The position numbers and the translations under genes are program-made. Shown piece by piece: positions 5,704 through 49,752 of a DNA stretch of 64,000 nucleotides. This stretch comes from an uncultured Candidatus Poseidoniales archaeon (GTDB lineage Archaea > Thermoplasmatota > Poseidoniia > Poseidoniales > Thalassarchaeaceae): contig CABXDN010000006.1 in the NCBI GenBank assembly GCA_902511005.1, positions 7,846 to 71,845 on the forward strand, given 5' to 3'. The notes under the pieces are model-generated. The model was not told the origin of the DNA. It made no database searches and was given only the letters and a program-made list of their open reading frames with translations. Positions within the stretch are counted from its first letter, which is position 1. Each line of letters begins with the position of its first letter.

Positions 5704-6558
5704 TTATCTTCTTGAATTGAATTTCTTTCCACTTCTATTATTATCTCTTCTTCTGCTATTTCCAGAACTCGATGAACTTTGACGACTTGTTTGTCTTCGA
5801 GATGAATGATTATTCCCTCGTCTTTCAGTAGATTTTCTATCAGGTCTTCTTGCTCTAGCCTGTGTATTTCTACTGCCTTTGGAACTGTCTGGACCTCCGG
5901 GTTTTCTAACGTCACAACTTGAGCGATTACAGAAATTTTTGCTTGCATAGTTATGATTTTTACATTTCGGACAGATCCAGTCACCTGGTTTTATATTGGA
6001 AACATCACGATTATCTCTTCCTCGATTATTGTCCCTTCCTCGATTATTGTCCCTTCCTCGATTATTATCTCTTCCTCGATTATTATCTCTTCCTCGATTA
6101 TTATCTCTTCCACTTGGTTTCTTTTCATTACAAGTTGATCGATTACAGAATTCTTTATTCGCATAGTTGTGGTTTTTACATTTTGGGCAACGCCAATCAC
6201 CTGGTTTCATGTGAATATCTCTATCGAAACTTCGTCTATCATTTCTACCTCGATTATTATCTCTTCCTCGATTATTATCTCTTCCTCGATTATTTCCGTT
6301 TCTATCATTACGTGGCCTTCTATCTCTTGGTGCAATTTCAACAGGTGAACCCACAGCATTTTCTGCAACTACACCTTCTGCTAGTGGTTTGATATGAATG
6401 AATGCACCGTTTATAGATCCAATTACTGAATCAACCCTTCCGAGGAATTTTCCACCAACAATTCTGATACCTGTATACAGTCCAGGAGCTCTACCTTCGA
6501 AAGATACCAACAACCCCCCTTCATGAGATGGTTGACTGACACTCCCGGAGAAACTCAT
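5704..6558 (-). CDS. Gar1-like (H/ACA RNP) domain protein fused to two RanBP2-type zinc fingers and Arg-rich RGRDNN repeats
   Basis: The N-terminal about 80 aa (KFLGRVDSVIGSINGAFIHIKPL) resembles the archaeal Gar1 core (xGxVxDVFGPVxxPYVxIKP). Two GDW-x-CPKCKNHNY-x5-CNR-x2-C-x3-KP modules are each preceded by a run of RGRDNN repeats. The tail is R/S-rich. Confidence 0.65.
   Translation of the reverse strand: MSFSGSVSQPSHEGGLLVSFEGRAPGLYTGIRIVGGKFLGRVDSVIGSINGAFIHIKPLAEGVVAENAVGSPVEIAPRDRRPRNDRNGNNRGRDNNRGRDNNRGRNDRRSFDRDIHMKPGDWRCPKCKNHNYANKEFCNRSTCNEKKPSGRDNNRGRDNNRGRDNNRGRDNNRGRDNNRGRDNRDVSNIKPGDWICPKCKNHNYASKNFCNRSSCDVRKPGGPDSSKGSRNTQARARRPDRKSTERRGNNHSSRRQTSRQSSSSSGNSRRRDNNRSGKKFNSRR
6005..6112 (-). 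repeat. in-frame 18-bp tandem repeat (about 6 units, CCTCGATTATTATCTCTT on + strand) encoding RGRDNN
   Basis: Direct reading of near-identical 18-nt units, entirely inside the 5704..6558 CDS. Confidence 0.9.
6246..6300 (-). repeat. second block of the same 18-bp coding repeat (about 3 units)
   Basis: The same unit as at 6005..6112 precedes the first zinc finger, indicating duplication of a repeat+ZnF module. Confidence 0.85.
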
Positions 6559-6561
6559 AGT

Positions 6562-8580
6562 TCATTCGCGTCGGGTTGAGTATATGAGACCGATAGTTAG
6601 GGCTAAAATAGTCAAAACAATACTCGACCCAGGTAAAAAACCAGTTTCCTTAGAGTTTTCAACGGGAAGAGTAACCATATCTTCGAATAAATGAGAATTA
6701 TTTACCAACACAACAACTTCGTTACATTTCATTGAAATATCGCAACCAATAACTTTCACTTCATGGATTCCTTCATCCCATAATCCAAAATTTATTATTG
6801 GAGTACTCCAAGAATCTCCTGAAACAGATATACTGCCAGCAGATAGATTATCTATGGATAATGAAAATAGGACCTCTTCTCCGTCTGGGTCGCTAAATTG
6901 ACCTTGTGCCTTCCAAGTATCTACTTCCCATCCATATTCAGAAAGAGTGATCGTTGGTGGCGAACTTTCTTTCATTATATCCAGATAAAATATCCTATTC
7001 ACTGGATATATATTTGCGCCATAAATTTCAATCCATAGATTAACTAAGCCTGGATTTAATCCAACTGATTCGACCATTAGTGTTGTATCGGATATTATTG
7101 TGGTTGTTTCAACTGTAGCCATATTAATATTTCCAGTTTGTGTGAAACTATAATCTAAATTTAATTCGGACCATCCCTGGTTTAGCTCAATTTTTATCGG
7201 ATGTGGGCTTTGGAGAATACTGGAATCTGTCGATACAGAAATCGGAATTCCAAGGTGCCATGTCCTATTTCCAGAACTCTGTCCGGCCACATCAATCGCC
7301 TCACAGGTAACGTCCACAACCCCCTCACTGGGTACAATTCCTGAGAATGATTTATCAGGTCTTTGGAGTATATTCGCAGAATCATCAGCATCACAATTAA
7401 TCTCTAATTGAGTAAGTGGTTTTTCATCGGTAAACCATGACGAAACACTCTCCCATTCGGCCCATACTATTTCTCCACTTTCTAATGAAGGAAACCATGA
7501 TTCATCAAGAGGCGCATTTTCGGTCCAAGCTGGTGGTTCATCAATTGGTATAGGCGCAATTGTAAAATCTGCAAAAATATCTTCTCCACTAGGCCAAATA
7601 CTTTCACTTCTATGAGGGAATAGAGTATACTTGATATTTTCATTATTTTCGAATGTATACGTGGATGAGCCGTCTCCTACGCATGTCCCTCTTAGTGGGG
7701 CATCTTCATGAGTCATAGGCTCGAATTCAACATCTCTTCCTTCGCATTCTTCCCACATGTCTAATCTTAAATCTGGATTACTAGGGAATGTGAAATCTAG
7801 AACAGCATTGGTCATATTAGACGCATTAAATGCGAGAGTAAATTCCTCCCCTTGGGCCATATTAGGTATAACCATCGTAGCATTCATCCATAGTTCAAGT
7901 CTACATTCATCTACTCCCTCAGAAGTTTCAATCAAGATATTGCAATCTCTTTCTGAATTGGGATAAACCGGAACTTCTTCACAATCATTACTAGATCCTA
8001 TAGCAGTGCAATCTCTTATGTCTGCATGATTAGAAGGGACTAAATTCCACTCTTCTATTATGACGCCATTATCTTGCCAAGTAGCATTCTTCCAATCTAA
8101 CCCTACGCCTCCCCTATGGGGTGAAGACTCTCTCAATCCTATTCGAGTCATCGCATATTCTATACATTCTGAAGCAACAGCCTCAACGGCTGATTTTTCG
8201 TCAGTTGAAATCCAACCGTCCCCTCCACTAGGATACAACTCTTCCAAATATGAATCAAGTTTTTCTCTCAACAAATCAACACTGCTGCCATTTATCCATG
8301 CTCTCGCTTCTACCTCTGCAGAATTCCAGTCGTCATCGACTACAATGTCAAAATGTGCATGGGTGTAAGGTAGAATATCTTCGAAAGTAATAGAACTGCA
8401 CCTATCTTCTATACTCCCACCTCCACCTCCCAGTTGATTTTTAGTTATTATTTCTGTATCTAGTTGATTATCTTTATTTTCTAATGGAAAAAACATTGAA
8501 AACATAAGAATAACGCAGATTGTCGTCAAAATTCCCGTTCGTCCAGAATAACTCACAATATATCGAGAAGGTATACTCAC
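6562..8580 (-). CDS. secreted/surface protein of unknown function (N-terminal signal anchor, C-terminal LPGSS-TM-RRE tail)
   Basis: N-terminal hydrophobic segment ILTTICVILMFSMFF. C-terminal GFLPGSSIVLTILALTIGLIYSTRRE. No catalytic motifs recognised. Confidence 0.5.
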   Translation of the reverse strand: MSIPSRYIVSYSGRTGILTTICVILMFSMFFPLENKDNQLDTEIITKNQLGGGGGSIEDRCSSITFEDILPYTHAHFDIVVDDDWNSAEVEARAWINGSSVDLLREKLDSYLEELYPSGGDGWISTDEKSAVEAVASECIEYAMTRIGLRESSPHRGGVGLDWKNATWQDNGVIIEEWNLVPSNHADIRDCTAIGSSNDCEEVPVYPNSERDCNILIETSEGVDECRLELWMNATMVIPNMAQGEEFTLAFNASNMTNAVLDFTFPSNPDLRLDMWEECEGRDVEFEPMTHEDAPLRGTCVGDGSSTYTFENNENIKYTLFPHRSESIWPSGEDIFADFTIAPIPIDEPPAWTENAPLDESWFPSLESGEIVWAEWESVSSWFTDEKPLTQLEINCDADDSANILQRPDKSFSGIVPSEGVVDVTCEAIDVAGQSSGNRTWHLGIPISVSTDSSILQSPHPIKIELNQGWSELNLDYSFTQTGNINMATVETTTIISDTTLMVESVGLNPGLVNLWIEIYGANIYPVNRIFYLDIMKESSPPTITLSEYGWEVDTWKAQGQFSDPDGEEVLFSLSIDNLSAGSISVSGDSWSTPIINFGLWDEGIHEVKVIGCDISMKCNEVVVLVNNSHLFEDMVTLPVENSKETGFLPGSSIVLTILALTIGLIYSTRRE

Positions 8581-8705: not shown

Positions 8706-10355
8706 ATGAAAAATAATAAAATAATTGCTATAATGATGACATTAAGTATGTTAGCCGCAGCTTTTGCTGGCTGTTTATCAGACGATACTGATAATAACTT
8801 TGACGAAGTAGATGGCGGATATGAATATGCTTCAAATGTTGATAATCACAGAATGCTAGTTGAAGATGTTTGTGATATCAAAGATCTAGCGGAAGCGCAT
8901 GACTGGGATGGAGTAAAAGACATCTACATGAATGGTAAGCACGCAGAAAAGAATGACGGTTCATACAGAACATTACAAGGATTTGCAGATGCTACAGGTA
9001 AGCAACATGGATTAGATACCTTTTACGGCACCGATTCGCCTTTAGATGACTATTTGATGTCAGCACTAGATGGAACCGGTATGTTTGCAGGTGCATCAGA
9101 TAGTGTTCGAGAGCAAGCTGTTGAGAAAGGGGTTCAAAATCAGATTATGGTTGCATATGCAATACATGAATTAAATGCGGCTATTAACAAAGCAGCAGCG
9201 GGGAACTTCGGTACCGATGATGCACAACACGCATGGGACGAAGGTTGGGCATTTTATCATGGTCTAGATGAGTATGCTTCATGCTCTCCATATGCTACTG
9301 GAGACAAGAGAGCAGGTAACTATGCAACTGCAAATGCAGATGGTACTGCTGTAGCAAATGCAGCAATTCTTCAAGCAATGAATGATGGTCTTACAGCTCT
9401 AAAAGCTGAAGATCTTGAAGGAGCAACTGCTGCAAGAGACGATATTGTTAAGAATTTAGTAATAATTTACTCTCAAGCAACAATTCGTTATGCTCACAAG
9501 ATGAACACTGATGATACTATCGAAAAAGCTCAAACACACCAAGCAGAGGGATATTCTTTCTGGAGAGTAATTGAAAAATACATTGCTGAAGCGAATCCAT
9601 CACCAGGTGACGATTGCTACAACGGCGTTACAATGACTGTTAGTGCAGCAGCAGCAGATGAATGTGCGGGATACATGTACATGACTGATTACGATATGGG
9701 TGACGGTTCAGATATCTGTTACAATATGAATACTCACACTGTCTCAGCAGATACTGACGAGAATTCTTGTCTTGGATACATGTTTTTAGAGAATTATGGT
9801 GAACAAACTTACACAGGTTGTTACAACAGTGCATCTCATGATATGAACAGTTCTTGGAATCAATCAATTTGCGAGTCATGGGATTACTATGATAATGCTT
9901 CATGGGGTTCCACTACTTTCACTGGATGCTACAACATGGTGTCTCATGAAACATCAAGCGATGATAATGCTACATGTATATCATACATGTGGGTTGAAGA
10001 TTATGTAACAGTTGCTGGACAAGACGGTTGCTACAACAGTGTGTCTCACTCATGGGATACAGCAGTAGATCAGACTACATGTGAATCTTATGGTTGGTAT
10101 GTAAATTATGGTGCTACTATATTTACTGGATGTTACAACATGGTATCTCATACAACTGATACAGATATGACTGAAGCAGAGTGTAGTGCTTTTACGCACT
10201 TCGATGTTTTCGGAACAACTGGAATTAATGGAATCTACGATTTCAATAATGTTCCAGTAGCAGGTACTGATTATCAGGCTGCTGTCCGTGCACATCTCCA
10301 ACCTGCTTGGGATATGCTCGGAATTACAGCTGAAGATATTGGAACACTCCAATAA
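8706..10355 (+). CDS. lipoprotein: helical N-terminal domain (QHAWDEGWAFYHG motif) plus six C-terminal Cys/His repeats (CYN-x2-[ST]H-x8-9-C-x-[SG]Y)
   Basis: Lipobox-like FAGC followed by an acidic linker. Six roughly 33-36-aa repeats start at Cys304 (nt 9615). Family unverified; an FEA1/ISIP2a-like or DUF4856-like iron-associated domain is only a guess. Confidence 0.6.
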   Translation: MKNNKIIAIMMTLSMLAAAFAGCLSDDTDNNFDEVDGGYEYASNVDNHRMLVEDVCDIKDLAEAHDWDGVKDIYMNGKHAEKNDGSYRTLQGFADATGKQHGLDTFYGTDSPLDDYLMSALDGTGMFAGASDSVREQAVEKGVQNQIMVAYAIHELNAAINKAAAGNFGTDDAQHAWDEGWAFYHGLDEYASCSPYATGDKRAGNYATANADGTAVANAAILQAMNDGLTALKAEDLEGATAARDDIVKNLVIIYSQATIRYAHKMNTDDTIEKAQTHQAEGYSFWRVIEKYIAEANPSPGDDCYNGVTMTVSAAAADECAGYMYMTDYDMGDGSDICYNMNTHTVSADTDENSCLGYMFLENYGEQTYTGCYNSASHDMNSSWNQSICESWDYYDNASWGSTTFTGCYNMVSHETSSDDNATCISYMWVEDYVTVAGQDGCYNSVSHSWDTAVDQTTCESYGWYVNYGATIFTGCYNMVSHTTDTDMTEAECSAFTHFDVFGTTGINGIYDFNNVPVAGTDYQAAVRAHLQPAWDMLGITAEDIGTLQ

Positions 10356-10367
10356 ATAAATTAACGA

Positions 10368-10396
10368 TTCGATGTGGGTTTTTTACTCACATCGAA
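10368..10396 (+). terminator. stem-loop after the lipoprotein gene (12-bp stem, T5 loop)
   Basis: TTCGATGTGGGT-TTTTT-ACTCACATCGAA has 11 Watson-Crick pairs plus one G-U. It lies 13 nt after the stop codon. Confidence 0.4.
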
Positions 10397-10412
10397 GGAC
10401 ATACTTAAACGG

Positions 10413-10509
10413 TAACGGGAGGCGCTGATTTATCTGGCTCACAGCAGGTAATCATTAGCTTCATCATAGTTAAAATGGGACTCACATTCAATTTTAGCGT
10501 CTCCCGTTA
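10413..10509 (+). promoter_or_regulatory. long-range inverted repeat enclosing 69 nt (possible structured leader/ncRNA upstream of the bilobal gene)
   Basis: TAACGGGAGGCGCT (10413..10426) pairs with AGCGTCTCCCGTTA (10496..10509), with 13 of 14 complementary and the mismatch G-U compatible on the + strand RNA. Confidence 0.3.
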
Positions 10510-10587
10510 ACCCAATGCTTAGTTTCCTGAAAACTCACATTAAATTACTAGTATCTATTCGAATGCACATGGGAATAGGGTATTAGT

Positions 10588-12687
10588 ATGGCTAATAGTA
10601 AGATAATCACTATTCTAATCACTTCAATCTTGATAATGACTTATGTTTCAGGGTGTATCAGTAATGATAGTGATGAAGGTAGTCTAGGTACTCTAGTAAT
10701 TGCATATGAGATCAAAGATAATCTAGATGACATTGATTCAAACCCTCAGGTTTTCGCAGAATATCTTTCTGAGAAATTAAATTATGATATTTCTCTGTTC
10801 AGTGTTGACTCAGAGGGTGCCATGGTTGAAGCTTTGAGATTTGGTAATGCCGATATTGCATTGATGGATGCAGGAGCCGCATGGGTCGGTTGGCAACAGT
10901 ATGGCTTAGAAGTTTTAGCTGCAGATCTTAATGTAGATGGAAGGACATATTACAATGCTAATGCATGGGTGAAATCAGATAGTAACGTTGCTAGTGCTCA
11001 CCTAGATGATAACTCCCTCACAGATCCTTTTGCACTTTTATCTGGTAAAACATCTTGCCATACAGGATGGCTAAAATCAGTAGGTATGCTTCTCCCAATG
11101 GGTTACCTAATTGGCCTAGGTTATGCAAATATTATCGGAGACCCGAATGATGTAGAGACCATAAGAAATACTATACATGGATTTTTTGACTCTAACTCTT
11201 CAATTCCAGATACTGGAACTCCATATTACGGTTATTCGGGTGCTTTGAAATGTTTATCGGAAGGGAAGGGAGATGTTGCCTTTTTAGAAGAAAATAGTGT
11301 AGATATTCTTTGTAATAATGAGGTTTCTTCTCTCAATCAAGAGTGGTGCCTTGATATTGAGGAGTATACCGCATTACCTGCTTTTGGAAAATCCCCTAGC
11401 CATCCAGTGATGTATAATCCTAATTTTTTAGATTCAGAAATTACAAGTAAAATCACAAATGTGTTAGTTGAAATGAGTAGTGACCCCGAAGCGACTAATA
11501 TTCTCGAGAATATCCTAAATACCCCTGGTTTCATTGCAACAAATACTTCAGTACACCTGGGTAGTTATTCATCACTAATTTCTAATATACCGGGTATTTC
11601 CGCTTACTATGAAGATAAATTTTCTTTGAATACTTCAGTTTCTCCAGATATTGATAAAATTAAGATTGCTTTTGATTCAGATAAATTGTCTGATGATGTA
11701 GATAAAAATCCAGAACTCTTAGCTGATTTTCTCTCTCAGAAATTAAACATTGATGTTGAACTATTTATTGTTAATTCTCAAAACGAATTAATCAATAGTT
11801 TAGTAGACGGCCATGCCGATATTGCAATTGTTAACTCAGAATTAGCATGGGTTGGATGGAAACAATATGACTTGGCTGTAATGGCAGCAGTAGAAATGGA
11901 AGATAGTAGGACATATTCAGATATTTTAGCTTGGGTTAATTCGAACAGTTCAATCGCAGCGAGTCATTTAGACAATGATCCTTCGACTAATCCTTTTGAT
12001 TTGTTGGAAGGAAAAACATCCTGTCATTCTGATCCTTCAGATGTGGGAAGTATGATGCTTCCAATCGGTTACTTAGCCAAAAATAATTATCTTGAATTAG
12101 ATCAAAGTAATGATATAGATTATTTGTCAGAAATAGTTTATTCTTTTTTCAATTTTAATTCATCAATACCTAACCAAAATGATACATATTTTAGTGATTT
12201 AGGTGCCCTAAGATGTCTTTCTGAGGGCGAAGGAGATGTTGTATTTTTAGAAGAAAACACTGTTAATATGTATTGCGATAATACCGTTATTTCAGAAAAT
12301 ATGGATTGGTGTCTAGATATTGAAGAATATACTTCTCTCCCTGCTATTGCTCCTATTCCAAGCGATTCTGTAATCTATAATCCTGATTTGCTGGATATAC
12401 AGACAAGAACAGCCGTCTTGAATGCTTTAATTTCACTTAACTATGAGATGTATCTGGAAAATTTCAGTACACGAGGATCGGTCTATACGGGTTGTTATGA
12501 TATCTCAGTACACGTAATTGATGAAGAATCTCAGAAAAATACTTGTGGTTCTGAGATAATGGATAACATATTAGGTACGTCCGGATTAACCAGAGCAACA
12601 TCTCAAGAACATCTAGGGCAATATTCATCATTCGTAGCAATTATTCCTGGCATTTCTTCTTATTATTATGGTATCTTTGCAAACTAA
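10588..12687 (+). CDS. bilobal transferrin-like lipoprotein (two tandem transferrin/PhnD-fold lobes), putative Fe(III)-binding protein
   Basis: Lipobox VSGC. Lobe 1 motifs [73 protein letters not shown] and SPSHPVMYN parallel the human serotransferrin N-lobe ([73 protein letters not shown]). Lobe 2 repeats the architecture with substituted ligand positions. Confidence 0.8.
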   Translation: [699 protein letters not shown]

Positions 12688-12744
12688 TTATTTATTGAAA
12701 TTAATTTTTGAGTTTTTACTTCAATCCGTCAATACCAAATAGGG

Positions 12745-12760
12745 ATTAGGGTCGCCTAAA
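12745..12760. promoter_or_regulatory. palindromic operator candidate ATTAGG-GTCG-CCTAAA (site 3)
   Basis: Ends 29 nt upstream of the ATG at 12790 (8 nt upstream of the TTG at 12769). Same core as the other sites, with one mismatch in the left arm. Confidence 0.5.
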
Positions 12761-12789
12761 CTTAGTGATTGAGTGTGGGAGGCGAGTCT

Positions 12790-13740
12790 ATGGAAGAAAT
12801 TCCTTGTAAGATAGAACCAATTATACGCTTAAATGACGTTTCGATAGGATACAAGGAAGATCAGCCTTTAGTTCAGATACCAAATCTTGAAATATTCCCT
12901 GGAGAAATTGTTGCAATTGCTGGTCCTTCAGGAGTCGGCAAATCAACTTTATTGAAAACTATTGCAGGATTAATGAGGCCAATCTCAGGAAGCGTTGAGG
13001 TATGTGGCAAGATTAGCCCGAAGCGTGTCAATCGAGGAGAACTAGGATACGTCCCTCAGAGTCTTGGTTTAGTAAGACACGCTAGTGTCCAACATAACGT
13101 GATGTTAGGGGCTAATGCTGGTCATAATTATTTTTATTCATTTTTAACAGTGTTTAGGGCATATATACTCAATTCCCCGAAGGTAGAAAAAATAGTGTAT
13201 CCTGGACTCACGGTTCTCCTACTACTGAGTTTATTTGGAAATCTACTCCTTCTCACACAAGGACAATTCTTGTCAACCGGCCAATCTCTATTCGGAATCG
13301 TGTTTTTGGCTATGATTCTAACTATGGTCGAATTTGTTTTTCTCATGCTACTTGTTGTCCTTGGTATTCGTTTTCCTTCATCATTTGCCAAGAGAAAGGC
13401 ATTAGATTCCATTAAATCTATGGGCCTAGAAGAAAAAATTAGTGAACCAATTAGGAGACTCTCCGGTGGACAACAAAGAAGAGTAGCAACTGCTAGAACT
13501 CTTGCTCAATCTCCAAACTTGATACTAGCTGATGAGTTTCTAAGTGAATTAGATCAGGAAACGATAGACATGGTTCTTGGAGAGGTTACTGAATATGTCA
13601 GATCTAATAATGCCGCTCTTTTAGTGGTAGAACATGATATTTCTCGTGCAAAAATGATGGCGGATAGATTACTAGTAATCGATGACGGTCGTGTGAATCC
13701 ATTTATCACTGAACCAACTGCAATGGAGGTTAAAATATGA
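12790..13740 (+). CDS. PhnC-like ABC transporter ATPase with a roughly 85-aa hydrophobic insertion
   Basis: Walker A GPSGVGKST, Q-loop YVPQSLG, signature LSGGQQRR, Walker B LILADEF, H-loop VVEHD. Two or three predicted TM helices (about nt 13120..13385) are inserted between the Q-loop and the signature. The ORF track starts at TTG 12769, but the in-frame ATG at 12790 is preferred. Confidence 0.8.
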   Translation: MEEIPCKIEPIIRLNDVSIGYKEDQPLVQIPNLEIFPGEIVAIAGPSGVGKSTLLKTIAGLMRPISGSVEVCGKISPKRVNRGELGYVPQSLGLVRHASVQHNVMLGANAGHNYFYSFLTVFRAYILNSPKVEKIVYPGLTVLLLLSLFGNLLLLTQGQFLSTGQSLFGIVFLAMILTMVEFVFLMLLVVLGIRFPSSFAKRKALDSIKSMGLEEKISEPIRRLSGGQQRRVATARTLAQSPNLILADEFLSELDQETIDMVLGEVTEYVRSNNAALLVVEHDISRAKMMADRLLVIDDGRVNPFITEPTAMEVKI

Positions 13741-14627
13741 AAAAACTTTTTTCGAACAGTTATTCTTTACTCCTTTTTTTCCTTTTCATCTTTTTATTTG
13801 CAGTTCTAATTTTAGATGGGATGATTAGCGATTGGGGAAGGTTATCTGGAAGTCTTGGTAATCTTACTAAATTTATTCAAGAGTCATTATGGCCACCTGA
13901 ATGGAGCGTGGTTGAACCGCAAGCATATCCTGTTTGTACTGTATATCCTAAATTTATGGATTTCACATGCTCAACTGCTTGGATAGGGTTGATAGAGACT
14001 ATAAAAATTGCATTTGTATCTACTGTATTTGGAATGATTCTATCTCTCCCTTTTTCATTGTTAGCTGCACGAAATTTGAATCCTTTATGGGTATCTTATT
14101 CCTCTAGATTTTTACTAGCAGGATTTAGAAGTTTACCAAGTCTTATCTGGGCTATATTTTTTGTTATACTGATTGGTTTTGGCCCTTTAGCCGGAGTTTT
14201 AGCCATGACTGTTTACACAGTAGGGTATCTTGGTAAACTCCAGTATGAGGCTATTGAAGGTATGGCTAAAACTCCTCTAGATGCTGCAGAGGCAATGGGC
14301 CTTTCGAAATTTGAAACTGCTTTCGAAGTAGTGATACCGGAATCAGCAAATGATCTAATTTCACAGGCGATTTTTATGTTTGAATATAATTTTCGCCATG
14401 GAACTGTAATTGGAATTGTGGGGGCAGGAGGAATAGGATATTACATTAATTTGTATCTTAAATTTTTACAATATGATAAAGTAATTGCATATCTTATTAT
14501 TATTTTCATAGTAGTTTTAATCATTGATTTCATTTCGATTAAAGCACGTTCATATTTCACAGAAGAAATAGTTCAAAAACGTTCATCTTGGAAAAGTATC
14601 TTCTTACCGTCTAGTATGGATAAATGA
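13737..14627 (+). CDS. PhnE-like ABC transporter permease
   Basis: Polytopic membrane protein with the PhnE-type C-terminal motif EAMGLSKFE...NFRHGTVIGIVGAGGIGY. A 4-nt ATGA overlap with the ATPase gene suggests translational coupling. Confidence 0.8.
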   Translation: MKKLFSNSYSLLLFFLFIFLFAVLILDGMISDWGRLSGSLGNLTKFIQESLWPPEWSVVEPQAYPVCTVYPKFMDFTCSTAWIGLIETIKIAFVSTVFGMILSLPFSLLAARNLNPLWVSYSSRFLLAGFRSLPSLIWAIFFVILIGFGPLAGVLAMTVYTVGYLGKLQYEAIEGMAKTPLDAAEAMGLSKFETAFEVVIPESANDLISQAIFMFEYNFRHGTVIGIVGAGGIGYYINLYLKFLQYDKVIAYLIIIFIVVLIIDFISIKARSYFTEEIVQKRSSWKSIFLPSSMDK

Positions 14628-14637
14628 TAGTTTTTAA

Positions 14638-15831
14638 TTACTCAATTAGTACTATATCACCAGTCCAATGAAAAATTAATACTTCATCAGCAATTCCTCT
14701 ACCAAAACCGACAATCATTCCACCACTTGAACCGACATAGTTTTCTTTCCATCTCCCGTCATCAGTTTCTTTCAATAACCAAATCTCCCCACTGCAAAAA
14801 TCTCCATATAAATATCCATTTTGTAGTGATTCCGGCCCCCAATCCATCCAAAATCCTCCTGTGATTGAACAATTCCCATTTTCATGACCATAAGCAACAA
14901 CTGGGGAAGTCAGGTCATCATCACTATGGTCATCATGGTCATCTTCTTCATAACAATCTCCATCCTTGTCAAAATATTGGAAACCTTCTTTTAATGACCA
15001 ACCAAGATTCTTTCTTTCAAACAATGGAACTAAATTTATTTCTTCCCAACAATTTTGTCCAACATCTCCAATCCAGATCATATTATCTTCGCCAAGCGAA
15101 AATCTCCATGGATTTCTCAGACCATGATGTAAGATATATGGGTCATCTTCTGAGTTGTTGAGTACGGGAGAAATTTCCCCATTTTGGTATGAAAAAAAGT
15201 TTATAGTTCCAAGTGAGTTATTCCTATTTTGGCCATTATTTTCAGGGTCATTTGCGCTACCTCCGTCACCTATGCCCCAAAGATATTGATTATCTCCAAT
15301 ACTAATCAGGTGTCCTCCATTATGATTCCTGTAAGGTTGTTCTACGGATCTTAAAGGAGAAATAGTAGAAGGATCTAGTAATCCACTTTCTCCCATTTTT
15401 ATTGATGCTAATATCAAGTCTGAATCATTAGGGCCATCACAATTTCCTTCCTCTATATATGATATCAGCACTGTTTTTGAGGCATTGAAATCTTCATCGA
15501 AGGCCATTCCTAGAAGCCCCTGTTCCATGTGGCAGCGACTTACAAATGAACTTAAGTCGGCGATTTCTTCCAGCTCCTCTCCGTCCCATGACTTAACAAA
15601 ACCGTTAAGATAAATAATCCATATTTCCTCATTTTCAGGATTGGAAATTGAGTGATGTGGGGTTTCGAATCCTTCCATATACAATTTACATTCTAGATTT
15701 AAATCTAGGGATAATTCACAATTAAATTCTGTTGGTTCTGGCCATTCAAATTCGTCCTCAGAATCTGAACTAATACACCCCGTCAATCCTGAACAAAGAA
15801 TTATTAGAACAAATATAGCAAAATACTTCAT
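14638..15831 (-). CDS. PQQ-dependent sugar (glucose/sorbosone) dehydrogenase-like beta-propeller lipoprotein
   Basis: Lipobox LTGC. Motifs HNGGHLISIGDNQYLWGIGDGG and HGLRNPWRFSL are typical of the soluble GSDH family. Confidence 0.65.
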   Translation of the reverse strand: MKYFAIFVLIILCSGLTGCISSDSEDEFEWPEPTEFNCELSLDLNLECKLYMEGFETPHHSISNPENEEIWIIYLNGFVKSWDGEELEEIADLSSFVSRCHMEQGLLGMAFDEDFNASKTVLISYIEEGNCDGPNDSDLILASIKMGESGLLDPSTISPLRSVEQPYRNHNGGHLISIGDNQYLWGIGDGGSANDPENNGQNRNNSLGTINFFSYQNGEISPVLNNSEDDPYILHHGLRNPWRFSLGEDNMIWIGDVGQNCWEEINLVPLFERKNLGWSLKEGFQYFDKDGDCYEEDDHDDHSDDDLTSPVVAYGHENGNCSITGGFWMDWGPESLQNGYLYGDFCSGEIWLLKETDDGRWKENYVGSSGGMIVGFGRGIADEVLIFHWTGDIVLIE

Positions 15832-15870
15832 ATTTCCCCTCTCATTTTAAGTAACCATGTGATTTTATGT

Positions 15871-16941
15871 TTATTCAAAATAAGCCTGAATTCCAGGTAC
15901 ATTGGATATAGCTGCTGCGTAAGTCCCCAAGTGATCTTCGGAGTTAGCAACAACCATTCCATCCGTATTCAATAAGTCATTGAGGATTTCTCTTCCTTCA
16001 TCATCATCTCCAAGTTTTGCCAATCCTTCTTGAACAATAATAACGGTTTCTTCATCCATCACTTCTGAATTATACATGGCAGGGTGGCTGGGAGCTTGCC
16101 CAAATGCAGGTAACATTACATATTCATCAATATCTAAGCACCAATCGTAGCGATCTTCTCCAGTACAGTATGAATTTACTACTGAATCTTTAGCCAGTGC
16201 CACATCTCCCGTTCCATCAGATAGGCACCTAAGTGCTCCTTTGTAGGAGGAGTAAGGCGTTCCTCCCTCAGGGATACTAGAATCATCTGAGAAGAAACCA
16301 TACACTGTATCTCTTAGAGACTCAATTTCATTTTCATCACCTACAACTTCTGCATATCCATTACCTATCAAATAGCCCATAGGGATGAGCATTCCTGCAC
16401 TTTTTAGCCATCCTGTATGACAAGATTTTTTTCCTTCCATTAGTGCAAATGGATCTGTAGTGTCATCATCATCGAGGTAAGCTTCCGCCATGTCCGAGTC
16501 TGCTTTTACCCATGCAGTTGCATTGTAGTATACTCTACCATCTGCTTTCTCTTCAGCAGCCAAGACATCTAATCCGTATACTTCCCATGCTAGCCATGCC
16601 GCTGCACCATCCATGAATGCAATATCTGCGTTACCTAGTCTGACAGCTTCAATTGCAGCTCCCGAATCAGAGACTGGAAATATCTCAACATCCATTCCTG
16701 TTATGGTACTAAGTTTATCCGCTAAATGTTGTGGATTTTTATCCCAAATTAAGTACGTATCTTGAACTTCAAAAGCAACAATAAGGCAATTATCTTGATC
16801 GTCACATTCTTCATAATTAACGTCAAAAATCATGTATATAGTCCCTGCACATAGTAGAACTCCTACCATCAATATTGCCTTATTTTTTACTGCCCAGTCT
16901 GTAACCGTAGCCGCCTTCATACCTTTACCGAGTAATAACAT
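15871..16941 (-). CDS. monolobal transferrin-like substrate-binding protein (membrane-anchored)
   Basis: [66 protein letters not shown] and APSHPAMYN are all close to lobe 1 of the 10588..12687 protein and to transferrin motifs. N-terminal TM anchor. The start may be M8 at 16920. Confidence 0.78.
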   Translation of the reverse strand: [356 protein letters not shown]

Positions 16942-46872: not shown

Positions 46873-49752
46873 TTATTTGCACATTCTTCTTACGTGCCTT
46901 GCTACAAGTTCTACGGTTGGTATTGTATAGTCTTCTAGTGTTGGCGAGAACGGAACAGGCGTATCTAGTGCTCCTATGACTATAGGTGGAGATTCCATAT
47001 CCCAAAAAGTTTCTTCCATTACTCTACTGCTTACGGTATGCCCCAGACCTCCAGTGTATTGAGACTCTTGAAGCACAATCATTTTCTTTGTTCTCAAAAC
47101 TGATTCGATGCAAGTTGAGCTATCAAATGGTAGTATTGTTCTCAAATCAACAATTTCAATTTCAATATTTTCTCTACTCAAAATCTCAGCAGTCTTTAGG
47201 GCAATATGTGTCATGGCACCCCAAGTCAGAATCGTTAAATCACTACCTCCTCTGATAATTTTAGCTTTACCTATCGAAGTCTCACCATTCTCTAATCTCT
47301 TCTTCACTGATTCAGTGTCGATTACTTGATTAATTGATTCACCCCACCCTGTTTTTCCTCCTCCGAGGCCGTATAAACCCAAATGTTCAAGGAAAACTAC
47401 AGGGTCATTCATTTCATGAGACTCAATTAATAAATCATATGCATCTTGTGGATTACTTGGGAAAACTATAGTCAAACCAGGATCGTTCATGAACCATGAT
47501 TCAATCATATTTGCATGAAATGGTCCACTTCTAATTTTGGCGCCTAGAGGGATTCTTACTGTTAAAGGAACTTCTGCTCCCCACCGCCATCGTAATTGTG
47601 CAGCATTATTTACTAGGGCATTCATCGCTAATGCCGCGAATCCTCCGAATTGAATCTCTGCAACTGGTCTCATGCCTCCTAGAGCCGCGCCTGTGGCTGA
47701 ATGAATAATTATTGATTCTGACAGCGGCATATCGAGTAACTTATCTGAATGCCCTTTAGCTTTAAGTGGTATATTCATACCAAATGCTCCAGCAACTTCC
47801 ATGTCTTCTCCCATGAAAACTATCTGATTGCCATATTTTTCAGCTAAAACTACCATTGCATTCTGGATAGCTCTACTATATGTGGATGAGTTGGGTGCAT
47901 TGGAAAATTCTATTGACAATTCACCATCTTTTAGTGGCCCTAGTACCATGCTCTTATCGTCTTTCTCAAAACGATCATATTGTTGAGAGTGCGAATCTGC
48001 ATTATGCTTAGATGTTACACCTTGTGTTACGGTATTTCCTTCTGGCCAAGGCATCATTTCCATTTCTTTTCTTGCGTCATCGACATAGTACTGTTCTTCC
48101 TTTTCCATCGCAGCTAATTGTTTCTCATTAGCACCTAGTGAGATGCAAAATTCTCTATGTGTTGGCAAAGGGTCTTTTTCTGCCCAATATGTCAATAAAT
48201 CTCTTCCTACGTAACCTGGAGGGTTACCTGTCACTGACCCGAGATACAGGTCATCATGATGGTGTGCATGTCCACAACCTCTCATTGTTTCTACATGTAT
48301 TAATGTGGCGCCTCCTCCGTCGAGTGCATACTCCCTAGCTGTTGCAGTCGAAGCATGAAATTGCAGAGGGTCGGACCCATCAATAGACCATGAAGGAATT
48401 CCCATAGCATAGCCTTTGTCTCCAAAGGTTTCGGCTCCTGATTGTCCTACGGTAAATGTGTCTAAAGCTATTTGATTATTTTGAATCATGAATGCTATAG
48501 GTAAACCTCTTGCCCCTGCTAAATTCATTGCTTCCCAAAATTCTCCATTACTGCTGGTTCCCTCACCGACGGGGGCCAAATGAAATCGATTAATGTCTAG
48601 TAAATTAGCTGCTAAAGCAACTCCAGTGGCAGTCGCACTAGCTATTGGGAGAGGTGCAGTGGGGGGAAGAACTCCTTTCTCCCAATTTCCGATGTGTAAA
48701 TCCCGCCCACCTGAATCTAAATTGCCACCATCCATATATGATCCTGATTTACCCATCTGGGCTGCAAATATTTCCAGTGGGGTTTGACCAACTGCAAGTG
48801 CTAACCCTACGTCCCTAATCATCGGGGCGATTATATCTGCACGAAATTTTTCTTCGATAGGTAAGTCGATAGCTCTTGTTAAGGACGTTGCACACCCCAC
48901 GATTCCTTCTTGCCATGTAGATCTGAATCCTTTACCTCCAAACGTCCCTCCATCTGGAGTACTTATTCCATTAGTAAAAAGATCCTTTAAATGCTCGTCA
49001 ATAGCTCTAGTTCTTGTCATCCATCGTTGCCATTCTAAATGCGTGTCTAAGTCAACGCTGGATAAATGTGCGATTCTTCTAAGGCATAGTGACAAATCTC
49101 TCAAAAATCGTATATTTCTTCTGCCCAAGTATAATTCGGATTTCCTCCGAGGGATGATTTCATCATCACCTATTATTGCTAAATCCGTCGTCCATAGCCT
49201 TTCTTTAAGTGAATTAGATATTTTATCGCAAAACATTATGCTGAATTTATGAAATGTGTCTCCATTGAATTCAGAATGGGGCTCCATATTCTTCCACTCT
49301 TTCGATATAAATTCTAAGTATCCGTCATGTCTTTCAGCAACAAAACGTAATACTTCTTTACGTGCTTGAATTTCATTCAATTTTTTTGTAAAGACTAATG
49401 GTCCCTTTGGTTCCCATTTGGCTCCCCATATGGGTGGTAACTCCTCTTGACTAGATTTTTCTTTTGTGAACGGGTTAATAATGGAGGTATTTATATCTGT
49501 AGAATCATTTCTATTCCTTCTTTCCGCTTCTTCTTTGACCTCTTCGAAACTTATCGATAAATCTCTTTCCCATATCTGAAAATTTCTTTTCCGACCTTTC
49601 CCCGTATCTGAACGATCTAGTGTAACTCTCGCTCTTTTATTGCAATGACTGCATTTTCTATCTATTTGTTTTGTATCTACGTCTCTGGTTTTCCAAACTT
49701 CGTGATTATTACATTCTGGGCACAGCCAAATCCCTTGCCGTGCTATAGCCAT
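46873..49752 (-). CDS. fused 2-oxoacid dehydrogenase E1 alpha+beta with N-terminal zinc-ribbon extension
   Basis: N-terminus CPEC-x24-CSHC. E1-alpha ThDP motif APVGEGTSSNGEFWEAMNLA..FMIQNNQIA. E1-beta block FMGEDMEVAGAFG..PLSESIIIHSATGAALGGMRPVAEIQFGGF. 959 aa in one ORF. Confidence 0.8.
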   Translation of the reverse strand: MAIARQGIWLCPECNNHEVWKTRDVDTKQIDRKCSHCNKRARVTLDRSDTGKGRKRNFQIWERDLSISFEEVKEEAERRNRNDSTDINTSIINPFTKEKSSQEELPPIWGAKWEPKGPLVFTKKLNEIQARKEVLRFVAERHDGYLEFISKEWKNMEPHSEFNGDTFHKFSIMFCDKISNSLKERLWTTDLAIIGDDEIIPRRKSELYLGRRNIRFLRDLSLCLRRIAHLSSVDLDTHLEWQRWMTRTRAIDEHLKDLFTNGISTPDGGTFGGKGFRSTWQEGIVGCATSLTRAIDLPIEEKFRADIIAPMIRDVGLALAVGQTPLEIFAAQMGKSGSYMDGGNLDSGGRDLHIGNWEKGVLPPTAPLPIASATATGVALAANLLDINRFHLAPVGEGTSSNGEFWEAMNLAGARGLPIAFMIQNNQIALDTFTVGQSGAETFGDKGYAMGIPSWSIDGSDPLQFHASTATAREYALDGGGATLIHVETMRGCGHAHHHDDLYLGSVTGNPPGYVGRDLLTYWAEKDPLPTHREFCISLGANEKQLAAMEKEEQYYVDDARKEMEMMPWPEGNTVTQGVTSKHNADSHSQQYDRFEKDDKSMVLGPLKDGELSIEFSNAPNSSTYSRAIQNAMVVLAEKYGNQIVFMGEDMEVAGAFGMNIPLKAKGHSDKLLDMPLSESIIIHSATGAALGGMRPVAEIQFGGFAALAMNALVNNAAQLRWRWGAEVPLTVRIPLGAKIRSGPFHANMIESWFMNDPGLTIVFPSNPQDAYDLLIESHEMNDPVVFLEHLGLYGLGGGKTGWGESINQVIDTESVKKRLENGETSIGKAKIIRGGSDLTILTWGAMTHIALKTAEILSRENIEIEIVDLRTILPFDSSTCIESVLRTKKMIVLQESQYTGGLGHTVSSRVMEETFWDMESPPIVIGALDTPVPFSPTLEDYTIPTVELVARHVRRMCK

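What the first reader, a model, noticed from the sequence alone, without database searches (positions are those of the whole stretch)
5704..6558. Archaeal Gar1-like protein with eukaryote-style RNA-binding add-ons: two RanBP2-type zinc fingers and RGRDNN repeats
- **Core domain:** the N-terminal about 80 aa look like the Gar1 beta-barrel of H/ACA pseudouridylation RNPs. Archaeal Gar1 is normally a bare protein of about 75-100 aa.
- **Duplicated module:** here the core is followed by a duplicated module of [Arg-rich RGRDNN hexapeptide repeats + zinc finger].
  - The fingers are GDWRCPKCKNHNYANKEFCNRSTCNEKKP and GDWICPKCKNHNYASKNFCNRSSCDVRKP.
  - They closely resemble the ssRNA-binding zf-RanBP fingers of FUS/EWS/ZRANB2 (GDWxCP..C.N.N.....CN.C...KP), but with a C-x4-C last pair.
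- **Tail:** the protein ends in an R/S-rich tail.
- **Parallel:** eukaryotic Gar1 carries Gly/Arg-rich flanks, so this looks like an analogous elaboration.
- **Repeat state:** the DNA repeats are near-perfect 18-mers, which suggests recent expansion and likely length polymorphism.
Basis: partly seen in the sequence, partly recalled or inferred. Interest (0 to 1): 0.66.

Follow-up and report, generated by a model that had tools for sequence, protein, structure and literature searches.

The report
Archaeal Gar1 with RanBP2 zinc-finger tail
This gene from a marine Group II archaeon encodes the Gar1 subunit of the RNA-guided pseudouridine machinery, fused to a long, arginine-rich, disordered tail that carries two zinc fingers of a type best known from eukaryotic RNA-binding proteins such as FUS and ZRANB2. 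The same design is found across the whole order Poseidoniales, yet I found no paper that describes it.

Summary
**Observation: confirmed.** ORF 5704-6558 (minus strand, 284 aa) has three kinds of parts:
- a Gar1 beta-barrel (aa 1-77);
- two modules, each an RGRDNN-repeat linker followed by a zinc finger;
- an Arg/Ser-rich tail.

**The core is Gar1.**
- The Pfam Gar1 model misses it.
- The AlphaFold model's ten best PDB matches are all Gar1 (TM 0.79/0.84 to P. furiosus Gar1).
- Profile-profile comparison with canonical archaeal Gar1 gives 99% probability, E 3.9e-18.

**The fingers are RanBP2-type.**
- Pfam PF00641 scores above its curated cut-off.
- The best PDB matches are ZRANB2, TAF15 and FUS.
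- The C-x4-C last pair is a derived subtype. Relatives carry canonical C-x2-C fingers, and C-x4-C always comes with Lys instead of Arg at RNA-contact position 20.

**Distribution.**
- The gene sits at a conserved locus in 78 of 80 Poseidoniales species genomes.
- It occurs in both families of the order (MGIIa and MGIIb), with 0-5 fingers.
- Many relatives carry true RGG/GAR repeats.
- Repeat number differs between close relatives.

**Best reading.** It is this lineage's H/ACA Gar1 with an added RNA-binding tail, analogous to eukaryotic Gar1 GAR domains and to the RGG-finger-RGG module of FUS-family proteins.

**Not tested:** Cbf5 binding, RNA binding, and whether it is the only Gar1 in the genome.

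**Verdict:** a new variant of a known kind, of moderate to high interest.

The parts
5704..6558 (-). Complete coding sequence of the Gar1-zinc-finger protein (284 aa plus the stop codon at 5704-5706).
   Evidence: ORF list and sequence. Found in 262 protein clusters. Orthologous locus in 80 Poseidoniales genomes.
6328..6558 (-). Gar1 core domain, aa 1-77, a six-stranded beta-barrel.
   Evidence: AlphaFold pLDDT 92.5. Foldseek top 10 hits are all Gar1; 2ey4_D gives TM 0.79/0.84, rmsd 2.2 A. hhalign against canonical Gar1: 99% probability, E 3.9e-18. A canonical-Gar1 HMM hits this ORF at 42.3 bits and nothing else in the window.
6202..6327 (-). Linker 1, aa 78-119. It is Arg/Asn/Asp-rich and disordered, and holds the first RGRDNN array (18-bp repeats at 6244-6294, 2.8 copies).
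   Evidence: Tandem Repeats Finder. pLDDT below 50 for aa 86-112. pI 11.9. Its length varies from 25 to 42 aa among close relatives.
6115..6201 (-). Zinc finger 1, aa 120-148: GDWRCPKCKNHNYANKEFCNRSTCNEKKP. RanBP2-type, C-x4-C variant.
   Evidence: Pfam PF00641 above its cut-off, 2 stretches. Finger profile against the PDB: ZRANB2 1.9e-9, TAF15 4e-8, FUS 5.7e-8. pLDDT about 84-91.
5986..6114 (-). Linker 2, aa 149-191. It is disordered and holds the second RGRDNN array (18-bp repeats at 6010-6111, 5.7 copies).
   Evidence: Tandem Repeats Finder. Units differ only at synonymous sites. pLDDT below 50 for aa 151-186. Its length varies from 24 to 43 aa among close relatives.
5899..5985 (-). Zinc finger 2, aa 192-220: GDWICPKCKNHNYASKNFCNRSSCDVRKP. 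RanBP2-type, C-x4-C variant.
   Evidence: Best Pfam PF00641 stretch is aa 190-212, matching profile positions 1-23 of 30. pLDDT about 86-91. A finger in the same position and of the same sequence type is present in L001 and L004.
5707..5898 (-). C-terminal Arg/Ser-rich disordered tail, aa 221-284. It includes the conserved motif KGSRNTQARARRPD.
   Evidence: pI 12.0, 16 Arg and 15 Ser in 64 aa. pLDDT below 50 for aa 226-284. The motif [KRG]G.[RK].[TS]..[RK].[RK]RP occurs in 77 of 102 MGIIb-type tails.

Best explanation
This is the Gar1 subunit of the box H/ACA pseudouridylation particle of a Marine Group II archaeon (order Poseidoniales, family Thalassarchaeaceae). It carries a lineage-specific C-terminal RNA-binding extension.

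**Shown**
- The N-terminal 77 residues are a Gar1 beta-barrel.
- The remaining 207 residues are strongly basic and predicted to be disordered, apart from two RanBP2-type zinc fingers.
- The architecture is conserved, with variation, across the order.

**Inferred: the core**
- The barrel docks on the catalytic domain of Cbf5, as in the P. furiosus complex, where Gar1 touches no guide RNA.
- There it controls the beta7/beta10 loop that governs loading and release of substrate RNA.

**Inferred: the tail**
- The tail reaches out from the particle and holds RNA.
- The RG-rich linkers bind by charge.
- The fingers bind short single-stranded stretches, using the stacking aromatic residue and the Asp/Asn contacts seen in ZRANB2 and FUS.
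- This would raise the particle's affinity for long substrates such as pre-rRNA, or help RNA annealing.
- The number of fingers (0-5) and the linker length would tune avidity.

**Analogy**
- Functionally the tail is the counterpart of the GAR domains that flank eukaryotic Gar1.
- It also resembles the RGG-finger-RGG module of FUS/EWS/TAF15.

**How the tail evolves**
- Linker length changes by slippage or unequal exchange in the 18-bp repeats.
- Finger number changes by duplication or loss of whole linker-plus-finger modules.
For: **The core is Gar1**
- A profile of the N-terminal domain hits only Gar1 chains among 177,635 PDB sequences.
- Foldseek top 10 hits are all Gar1, archaeal ones first.
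- hhalign gives 99% probability, E 3.9e-18.
- Six of the seven invariant residues of canonical Gar1 are kept. The seventh is Pro in the family consensus.
- The exhaustive profile search reaches Methanothermobacter GAR1.
- JGI names relatives 'rRNA processing protein Gar1'.

**The fingers are RanBP2-type**
- PF00641 scores 33.8 bits against a cut-off of 27.
- C-x2-C relatives score 74-98 bits over the whole profile.
- PDB hits are led by the ssRNA-binding ZRANB2, TAF15 and FUS.

**RNA-contact positions are conserved across 372 distinct fingers (positions as defined in PMC6384913)**
- Asp4: 370 of 372.
- Asn14: 357 of 372.
- Asn16: all.
- Phe/Tyr17: all.
- Arg or Lys at position 20: all.

**The tail**
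- Disordered and with pI 11.6.

**One orthologous gene**
- Same locus in 78 of 80 genomes, including the versions without fingers.
- Present in both Poseidoniaceae and Thalassarchaeaceae.

**Role of Gar1 and of GAR domains**
- Taken from review PMC1865073.
Against: **The core**
- The window protein fails the curated Pfam and NCBIfam Gar1 thresholds.
- Nothing here shows that it binds Cbf5.
- I could not test whether a second, canonical gar1 exists elsewhere in the genome. Only 64 kb were available; none is in the window.
- No H/ACA partner gene or guide RNA lies nearby.

**The fingers**
- The window's fingers are the derived C-x4-C type, with Asn or Ser at position 19 and Lys at position 20. 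The Arg pair at these positions makes the guanine contacts in ZRANB2.
- A finger with Lys19/Ser20 (ZRANB1) does not bind RNA (PMC6384913).
- So RNA binding and GGU specificity are less secure for this protein than for its C-x2-C relatives.

**The tail as a whole**
- Some orthologues have no finger at all, so the fingers are dispensable for the core function.
Confidence: 0.62

Rival explanations
1. It is a Gar1-domain paralogue that works outside the H/ACA particle, for example as a free RNA chaperone or ribosome-assembly factor. In this reading the barrel has been re-used, and a separate canonical Gar1 serves Cbf5.
For: - The barrel is divergent enough to miss the Pfam and NCBIfam thresholds.
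- The gene is not next to any RNA-modification gene. It follows a secreted or membrane protein by 3 nt.
- Eukaryotes do have a Gar1 paralogue, Naf1, which appears among the fold matches.
Against: - The fold and profile matches are closest to archaeal Gar1, not Naf1 (TM 0.79 versus 0.65-0.68).
- Canonical invariant residues are kept.
- Searches with the canonical Gar1 profile returned 73 proteins. None that carries a name is from Poseidoniales, although that order is very heavily sampled.
- No second gar1 is in the window.
Confidence: 0.13
2. It is Gar1, but the fingers bind something other than RNA: a protein partner or DNA. RanBP2-type fingers in Nup153, RanBP2, Npl4 and ZRANB1 bind Ran or ubiquitin. 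In this reading the fingers recruit or localise the particle.
For: - Protein-binding fingers (Nup153, RanBP2, RNF31, TRABID) are also among the PDB matches.
- The window's fingers lack the Arg19/Arg20 pair.
- A Lys19/Ser20 finger does not bind RNA.
Against: - The best matches are the RNA-binding members (ZRANB2 1.9e-9, TAF15, FUS). The Ran- and ubiquitin-binding fingers score E 1e-3 to 0.5.
- The aromatic residue at position 17, which PMC6384913 used to pick out putative RNA-binding fingers, is present in all 372 fingers. Asp4 and Asn14 are nearly invariant.
- The fingers sit in strongly basic RG/RGG linkers.
- From my own knowledge, the Thr-Phe pair of ubiquitin-binding NZF fingers is absent. 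I did not test this with a tool.
Confidence: 0.1
3. The tail is largely neutral low-complexity growth. An AT-rich genome drives slippage that expands Asn/Asp/Arg repeats on a pre-existing basic Gar1 tail, and the fingers are a tolerated insertion that contributes nothing.
For: - Repeat number varies freely among close relatives.
- Orthologues without fingers exist.
- Canonical Gar1 already has short basic tails.
- The window is 38.5% G+C.
Against: - Finger residues are invariant or nearly so across 372 distinct fingers and both families of the order.
- Repeat units differ only at synonymous sites.
- A linear motif after the last finger is conserved in 77 of 102 tails.
- 244 of 324 family proteins keep at least one finger, although many of the rest are fragments.
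Confidence: 0.05

Closest known systems
Archaeal Gar1 (for example P. furiosus Gar1 in PDB 2EY4, 2HVY, 2RFK; Methanothermobacter GAR1)
   Same: - Same six-stranded beta-barrel (rmsd 2.1-2.2 A, 25-26% identity).
- Same conserved Gly/Pro positions.
- Position at the N-terminus of the protein, followed by a basic tail.
   Different: - Canonical proteins are 76-109 aa with only the Gar1 domain. This one is 284 aa, with two RanBP2-type fingers and repeat linkers.
- The barrel is too divergent for the curated Pfam and NCBIfam thresholds.
Eukaryotic Gar1 (yeast Gar1p, human GAR1) with flanking Gly/Arg-rich (GAR) domains
   Same: - A Gar1 core plus Arg-rich disordered extensions thought to contact RNA (PMC1865073).
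- Relatives of the window protein carry real RGG arrays, for example P0141 and P0081.
   Different: - The extension is only C-terminal. As I recall, eukaryotic GAR domains lie on both sides of the core; the review says only 'terminal GAR domains'.
- The window's repeats are RGRDNN with no RGG.
- As far as I know, eukaryotic Gar1 has no zinc fingers.
- The barrel is nearer to archaeal than to eukaryotic Gar1.
ZRANB2/ZNF265 (two RanBP2-type ssRNA-binding fingers plus an Arg/Ser-rich tail)
   Same: - Best PDB match of the fingers (E 1.9e-9).
- Two fingers followed by an Arg/Ser-rich C-terminal tail.
- Asp4, Asn14, Asn16, aromatic 17 and the Asn after Cys3 are conserved.
   Different: - ZRANB2 has Arg19/Arg20 and a C-x2-C last pair. 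The window has Asn or Ser at 19, Lys at 20, and C-x4-C.
- ZRANB2 is a splicing factor with no Gar1 domain.
FET proteins (FUS, EWS, TAF15): the RGG-finger-RGG module
   Same: - A RanBP2-type finger embedded between Arg/Gly-rich disordered segments.
- TAF15 and FUS fingers match at E 4e-8 and 6e-8.
- Many Poseidoniales fingers have Phe or Trp at 19 and Arg at 20, like the Trp-Arg of FUS and EWS.
   Different: - FET proteins also have an RRM and a prion-like domain, and only one finger.
- Here one to five fingers hang on a Gar1 barrel.

Membership tests
Gar1 (H/ACA RNP subunit; Pfam PF04410, COG3277) | Six-stranded beta-barrel with the Gar1 fold | tested here: met
   AlphaFold model pLDDT 92.5. 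Foldseek ranks 1-10 are all Gar1. TM 0.79/0.84 and rmsd 2.1-2.2 A to P. furiosus Gar1.
Gar1 (H/ACA RNP subunit; Pfam PF04410, COG3277) | Score above the curated family threshold (Pfam gathering score; NCBIfam equivalog cut-off) | tested here: not met
   No PF04410 hit for the window protein even at E 10. NCBIfam NF009629 scores 11.3 bits against a cut-off of 132. The relative P0047 reaches 20.6 bits against 29.3.
Gar1 (H/ACA RNP subunit; Pfam PF04410, COG3277) | Statistically supported sequence homology to bona fide Gar1 proteins | tested here: met
   hhalign: 99% probability, E 3.9e-18 over 74 columns. A canonical-Gar1 HMM scores 42.3 bits, E 2e-12, on the window ORF. The family profile retrieves Pfam-positive Gar1 in 1.84 billion proteins at E 3.5e-7 to 5e-4. 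Six of seven canonical invariant residues are kept.
Gar1 (H/ACA RNP subunit; Pfam PF04410, COG3277) | Binds the Cbf5 catalytic domain and is part of the H/ACA particle | not testable with these tools
   No complex prediction or biochemistry is available. No cbf5 or nop10 gene in the window.
Gar1 (H/ACA RNP subunit; Pfam PF04410, COG3277) | Is the genome's Gar1 orthologue (no other Gar1 gene) | tested here: inconclusive
   No second Gar1 in the 64-kb window. No Poseidoniales-named protein among 73 canonical Gar1 hits. Whole genomes could not be scanned.
RanBP2-type zinc finger (Pfam PF00641, Zn_ribbon_RanBP) | Score above the Pfam gathering threshold, and better than generic zinc-ribbon families | tested here: met
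   33.8 bits against 27, with 2 stretches. Zn_ribbon_3, Zn_Ribbon_1, DZR and others score 6-14 bits against cut-offs of 23-28.
RanBP2-type zinc finger (Pfam PF00641, Zn_ribbon_RanBP) | Consensus W-x-C-x(2-4)-C-x3-N-x6-C-x2-C | tested here: not met
   W, Cys1-3, Asn and all spacings up to Cys3 fit. The last pair is C-x4-C in both window fingers, so Pfam aligns only positions 1-23 of 30. Relatives at the same locus have the full consensus with C-x2-C. The window's form is therefore a two-residue insertion variant.
ssRNA-binding subclass of RanBP2-type fingers (ZRANB2, FUS, EWS, RBM5/10) | Aromatic residue at position 17, plus Asp4, Asn14 and Arg19/Arg20 contacts (PMC6384913) | tested here: inconclusive
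   Tyr17, Asp4, Asn14 and Asn16 are present in both fingers. Position 19 is Asn or Ser, and position 20 is Lys instead of Arg. C-x2-C relatives have FR, RR, WR or KR, as the RNA-binding eukaryotic fingers do.
ssRNA-binding subclass of RanBP2-type fingers (ZRANB2, FUS, EWS, RBM5/10) | Zinc coordination and binding of GGU-like single-stranded RNA | not testable with these tools
   Needs metal analysis and RNA-binding assays.
GAR / RGG domain (as in eukaryotic Gar1, fibrillarin, nucleolin) | Arrays of RGG/RG repeats rich in Gly and Arg | tested here: not met
   The window has 9 RG dipeptides but no RGG. Its linkers are RGRDNN units with more Asn and Asp than Gly. The feature is met in relatives: 46 family proteins have 6 or more RGG, and 17 have 10 or more.

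The most novel reading that the evidence does not exclude
**The reading**
The Poseidoniales H/ACA particle has independently acquired, or inherited from an ancient exchange with eukaryotes, the eukaryote-style RGG-plus-RanBP2-finger RNA-binding module.

**Consequences if true**
- The tail gives Gar1 its own sequence-aware grip on single-stranded RNA.
- The tail drives multivalent clustering of modification particles on nascent rRNA, as a condensate. This would be a prokaryotic counterpart of nucleolar organisation by GAR domains.
- The C-x4-C/Lys20 fingers would be a new specificity class of RanBP2-type finger.
Probability: 0.12. Interest if true: 0.8.

Novelty: new variant of a known kind. 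Interest (0 to 1): 0.56.

Why it matters
**It contradicts a textbook statement**
- Reviews state that archaeal Gar1 proteins lack the GAR domains of their eukaryotic homologues (PMC1865073).
- Here a whole, globally abundant archaeal order carries Gar1 with Arg-rich tails, which in many members are true RGG tails.
- On top of that come RanBP2-type zinc fingers. To my knowledge (not checked with a tool here) this domain is regarded as essentially eukaryotic, and it is best known from splicing and FET proteins.

**What it offers for study**
- It is a natural experiment on what RNA-binding tails add to an H/ACA particle. Orthologues at one conserved locus carry 0 to 5 fingers and linkers of very different composition.
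- It supplies hundreds of natural RanBP2-type finger variants, including a new C-x4-C/Lys20 class. This is of interest because these fingers are used as scaffolds for designed RNA-binding proteins (PMC6384913, PMC11789483).
- It bears on where eukaryotic RNA-binding modules came from.

**Annotation**
- Public annotation is inconsistent. NCBI calls these proteins 'zinc finger protein' or 'hypothetical protein', and only IMG adds Gar1.

Tried and rejected
**Searches that found nothing or too little**
- Pfam and NCBIfam scans of the protein for Gar1: no usable hit.
- Single-sequence phmmer of the N-terminal 88 aa against the PDB: no hit. Profiles were needed.
- Literature searches: Gar1 + RanBP2 + archaea; Poseidoniales + zinc finger; RanBP2-type zinc finger + archaea; Gar1 + Marine Group II; archaeal Gar1 + GAR domain. 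None found a description of this architecture.
- Cluster look-up to get the taxonomy of divergent family members: almost no names returned.
- Rfam scan of the window: only a tRNA, no H/ACA guide RNA.

**Searches with a negative but limited result**
- Six-frame pattern search for other proteins carrying this finger, in the window plus 80 related loci (882 kb). All 62 ORFs with the finger are the gar1 gene itself. Three exceptions are the same gene, either frameshifted, masked or missed by my pattern. The sample is biased towards this locus.
- Search for a second gar1 in the window with two HMMs: none.
- Pfam on ten neighbouring genes: no RNA-modification context.

**Considered and rejected**
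- A chance ORF or an assembly or fusion artefact. Rejected because the architecture is conserved across hundreds of assemblies and 80 species-level genomes.
- The plus-strand ORFs across the repeats. These are by-products of the repeats.

**Not run**
- A third large protein search with the finger alone. The several hundred Gar1-finger clusters would have filled the 120 rows shown.
Full report
**1. What is in the sequence**

The minus-strand ORF 5704..6558 starts with ATG and encodes 284 aa. Its parts are as follows:
- aa 1-77: a compact domain.
- aa 78-119: a basic linker containing RGRDNN units.
- aa 120-148: finger 1, GDWRCPKCKNHNYANKEFCNRSTCNEKKP.
- aa 149-191: a second linker with more RGRDNN units.
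- aa 192-220: finger 2, GDWICPKCKNHNYASKNFCNRSSCDVRKP.
- aa 221-284: an Arg/Ser-rich tail.

Tandem Repeats Finder reports 18-bp arrays at 6010-6111 (5.7 copies, 95% matches) and 6244-6294 (2.8 copies, 96% matches). On the coding strand the units differ only at synonymous sites.

The region after the core has pI 11.6 and net charge +38. A full-length AlphaFold model gives high confidence for the core and both fingers. It gives pLDDT below 50 for aa 86-112, 151-186 and 226-284, that is, beads on a string.

**2. The core is Gar1**

- Pfam PF04410 gives nothing.
- NCBIfam Gar1 gives E 0.28, although the alignment is end to end.
- Single-sequence phmmer against the PDB is empty.

Deeper tests are unambiguous.

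*Sequence profiles.*
- I built a profile of 19 diverse N-terminal domains of the family (A1).
- Searched against the PDB, it hits five sequences, all of them Gar1. Four are from P. furiosus and one from yeast.
- In an exhaustive HMMER search of 1.84 billion representative proteins, the same profile finds 130 proteins.
- At the weak end of that list are short proteins of 75-101 aa. Most of these match Pfam Gar1, four of them above its threshold.
- One of them is Methanothermobacter 'snoRNP protein GAR1'.
- Profile-profile comparison of A1 with nine of these canonical proteins (A3) gives 99% probability, E 3.9e-18 over 74 columns.
- Six of the seven invariant Gly/Pro positions of the canonical set are kept in the window protein. 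The seventh is Pro in the family consensus.
- An HMM of the canonical set hits this ORF at 42.3 bits and nothing else in the window.

*Structure.*
- The AlphaFold model of the domain has pLDDT 92.5 and six strands.
- Its ten best PDB matches are all Gar1: P. furiosus first (TM 0.79/0.84, rmsd 2.1-2.2 A, 25-26% identity), then yeast, human and insect Gar1.
- Naf1 and the F1-ATPase and RimM barrels score lower.

**3. The fingers are RanBP2-type**

- Zn_ribbon_RanBP is the best Pfam family and passes its cut-off (33.8 versus 27 bits). Generic zinc ribbons score far below theirs.
- A profile of 16 fingers from the family (A2) finds the following in the PDB:
  - ZNF265/ZRANB2 at E 1.9e-9;
  - TAF15 at 4e-8;
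  - FUS at 5.7e-8;
  - then Nup153, RBM10, RBM5 and RanBP2.
This spacing explains why Pfam aligns only positions 1-23 of 30.

The family shows what the C-x4-C form is:
- Among the distinct fingers collected in the first protein search, 43 have the canonical CNRC and 57 have CNR-xx-C.
- One protein can have both kinds (L030, L063).
- C-x2-C relatives score 74-98 bits over the whole Pfam profile.

I then looked at 372 distinct fingers from both families of the order. I used the position numbering of PMC6384913 for the RNA contacts seen in the ZRANB2-RNA structure:
- Asp4, Asn16, an aromatic residue at 17 and a basic residue at 20 are invariant or nearly so. Asn14 is kept in 357 of 372.
- C-x2-C fingers have FR, RR, WR or KR at positions 19-20, as in FUS/EWS, ZRANB2 and RBM5.
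- Of the 73 C-x4-C fingers, 72 have Lys at 20 (the exception has Arg) and all have Asn or Ser at 19.
- All but one of the 299 C-x2-C fingers have Arg at 20.

So the window's fingers are a derived subtype. A two-residue insertion in the second zinc knuckle goes together with Arg20-to-Lys. They are almost certainly homologous to the ssRNA-binding fingers. Their RNA binding and specificity are less certain than for the ancestral type.

**4. Distribution and evolution**

*Protein searches.*
- The first protein search gave 262 clusters.
- A second search, started from a divergent member, gave 301 more hits.
- Sources name these Poseidoniales, Poseidoniaceae, Poseidonia alphae, Thermoplasmatota, 'zinc finger Ran-binding domain-containing protein' or 'rRNA processing protein Gar1'.

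*Genome scan.*
- A scan of one genome per species found 116 loci. All 80 retained loci come from marine archaeal bins whose titles read Poseidoniales, Thalassarchaeaceae/Thalassarchaeum, Marine Group II, or generic labels such as Euryarchaeota, Methanobacteriota or Thermoplasmatota archaeon. One bin is labelled Rhodobacteraceae.
- The closest locus is a single-cell genome, AG-319-P11. Its neighbouring genes are 90-96% identical at protein level to those of the window.

*Synteny.*
- The gene follows a gene for a 672-aa secreted or membrane protein in 78 of 80 loci; the gap is 3 nt in the window.
- It faces a TPR membrane protein in 71 of 80.
- Fingerless versions of about 150 aa occupy the same locus, so this is one orthologous gene.

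*Variation in the tail.*
- Finger number ranges from 0 to 5.
- Many relatives have genuine RGG arrays. 46 proteins have 6 or more RGG. P0141 is a Gar1 core plus a pure RGG tail.
- In the window's clade, fingers 1 and 2 are positional orthologues in L001 and L004. L003 has duplicated the second module.

*Repeat number.*
- Linker lengths differ among proteins that are 78-93% identical overall by alignment: 25-42 aa for linker 1 and 24-43 aa for linker 2.
- The window has the most RGRDNN units of those compared.
- This confirms the predicted length polymorphism, at least between strains and species.

*Canonical archaeal Gar1.* By contrast, the 73 canonical hits are 76-109 aa with only the Gar1 domain.

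**5. How it most likely works**

*Established knowledge (review PMC1865073).*
- Archaeal Gar1 binds the catalytic domain of Cbf5 independently of Nop10.
- It makes no contact with the guide RNA.
- It acts on the beta7/beta10 loop that controls loading and release of substrate RNA.
- It is needed for full activity.
- Eukaryotic Gar1 adds GAR domains. These are thought to account for cross-links between Gar1 and RNA.

*Inference for this protein.*
- The barrel plays the canonical role.
- The 207-residue basic tail, disordered apart from its two fingers, extends from the particle and binds RNA. The RG-rich linkers bind non-specifically. The fingers bind short single-stranded motifs.
- This would increase the particle's affinity for, or residence on, long substrates such as pre-rRNA, or aid annealing.
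- Finger number and linker length would set avidity.

*What is shown and what is not.*
- Shown: the domain identities, the predicted disorder, the charge and the conservation.
- Inferred: Cbf5 binding, RNA binding and the functional consequence.

I put 0.62 on this composite statement. That breaks down as roughly 0.85 that it is the lineage's Gar1, and roughly 0.7 that the tail binds RNA.

*Rivals.*
- A paralogue working outside the H/ACA particle (0.13).
- Fingers that bind protein or DNA (0.10).
- A largely neutral low-complexity tail (0.05).

**6. Comparison with what is known, and novelty**

- It works like eukaryotic Gar1, that is, a core plus Arg-rich RNA-contacting extensions.
- Its tail is built like ZRANB2 (two fingers plus an Arg/Ser tail) and like the RGG-finger-RGG module of FET proteins.
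- By homology it belongs to the Gar1 family and to the RanBP2-finger family.
- It fails the curated Gar1 thresholds, the strict C-x2-C consensus and the strict RGG definition.
- I found no paper describing a Gar1-RanBP2-finger protein, or RGG tails on archaeal Gar1, in five targeted full-text searches.
- A standard review states that archaeal Gar1 lacks GAR domains.
- Automatic annotation has partly seen it. IMG lists both a Gar1 and a Zn-ribbon assignment. NCBI says 'zinc finger (Ran-binding domain-containing) protein'.
- I therefore rate it a new variant of a known kind. It is real, order-wide, undescribed in the literature I could search, and experimentally tractable.

**7. Limits**

- Only 64 kb of the genome was available, so a second Gar1 elsewhere cannot be excluded.
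- The origin of the fingers (transfer from eukaryotes or older) was not resolved.
- No biochemical property was tested.

Noticed in passing
window 8706-16941: An iron-uptake-like cluster sits next to gar1. It holds a Fea1-family protein (a low-iron-inducible periplasmic protein known from algae, 89.6 bits), two proteins combining Phosphonate-bd and Transferrin domains, and an ABC ATPase with its permease. Homologues of the Fea1 and transferrin-like genes recur beside gar1 in many Poseidoniales loci.
   Followed up: partly
window 6562-8580 (minus strand): This 672-aa ORF has no Pfam match and has hydrophobic N- and C-terminal segments. It ends 3 nt before the gar1 start codon. The pair is syntenic in 78 of 80 related loci, which suggests co-transcription of two functionally unrelated genes.
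   Followed up: partly
window 5830-5880 (aa 227-243 of the protein): A conserved linear motif follows the last finger: KGSRxTxxRxRRP[DN]. It occurs in 77 of 102 Thalassarchaeaceae-type tails and in none of 131 Poseidoniaceae-type tails. Its function is unknown.
   Followed up: partly
family-wide; window fingers at 5899-5985 and 6115-6201: There is near-strict coupling between two finger features. Fingers with C-x4-C as the last pair have Lys at contact position 20 (72 of 73 distinct fingers) and Asn or Ser at 19. Fingers with C-x2-C have Arg at 20 (298 of 299). This suggests a coordinated remodelling of the RNA-binding face.
   Followed up: yes
proteins P0222 (2456 aa) and P0233 (1199 aa): These two giant proteins match the Gar1-barrel profile in 13 and 10 separate stretches. 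They appear to carry tandem arrays of a Gar1-like or related small barrel. Their origin and function are unknown.
   Followed up: no
proteins P0146, P0155, P0157: A divergent Thalassarchaeaceae subgroup of the same Gar1 family has a single, different finger (PTWVCxxCxxxNSxTxKCxxCG) in place of the GDW-type finger.
   Followed up: no
window 46873-49752 (minus strand): This 959-aa ORF begins with a zinc-ribbon-like CPEC...CSHC motif. It does not have RanBP2-type spacing. I did not characterise it.
   Followed up: no
locus L007 (contig PARX01000028.1): This contig carries a typical Poseidoniales gar1 locus but is deposited in a bin labelled Rhodobacteraceae bacterium. P0354 is likewise labelled Woesearchaeota. 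Both are probably binning or labelling errors in public records.
   Followed up: no
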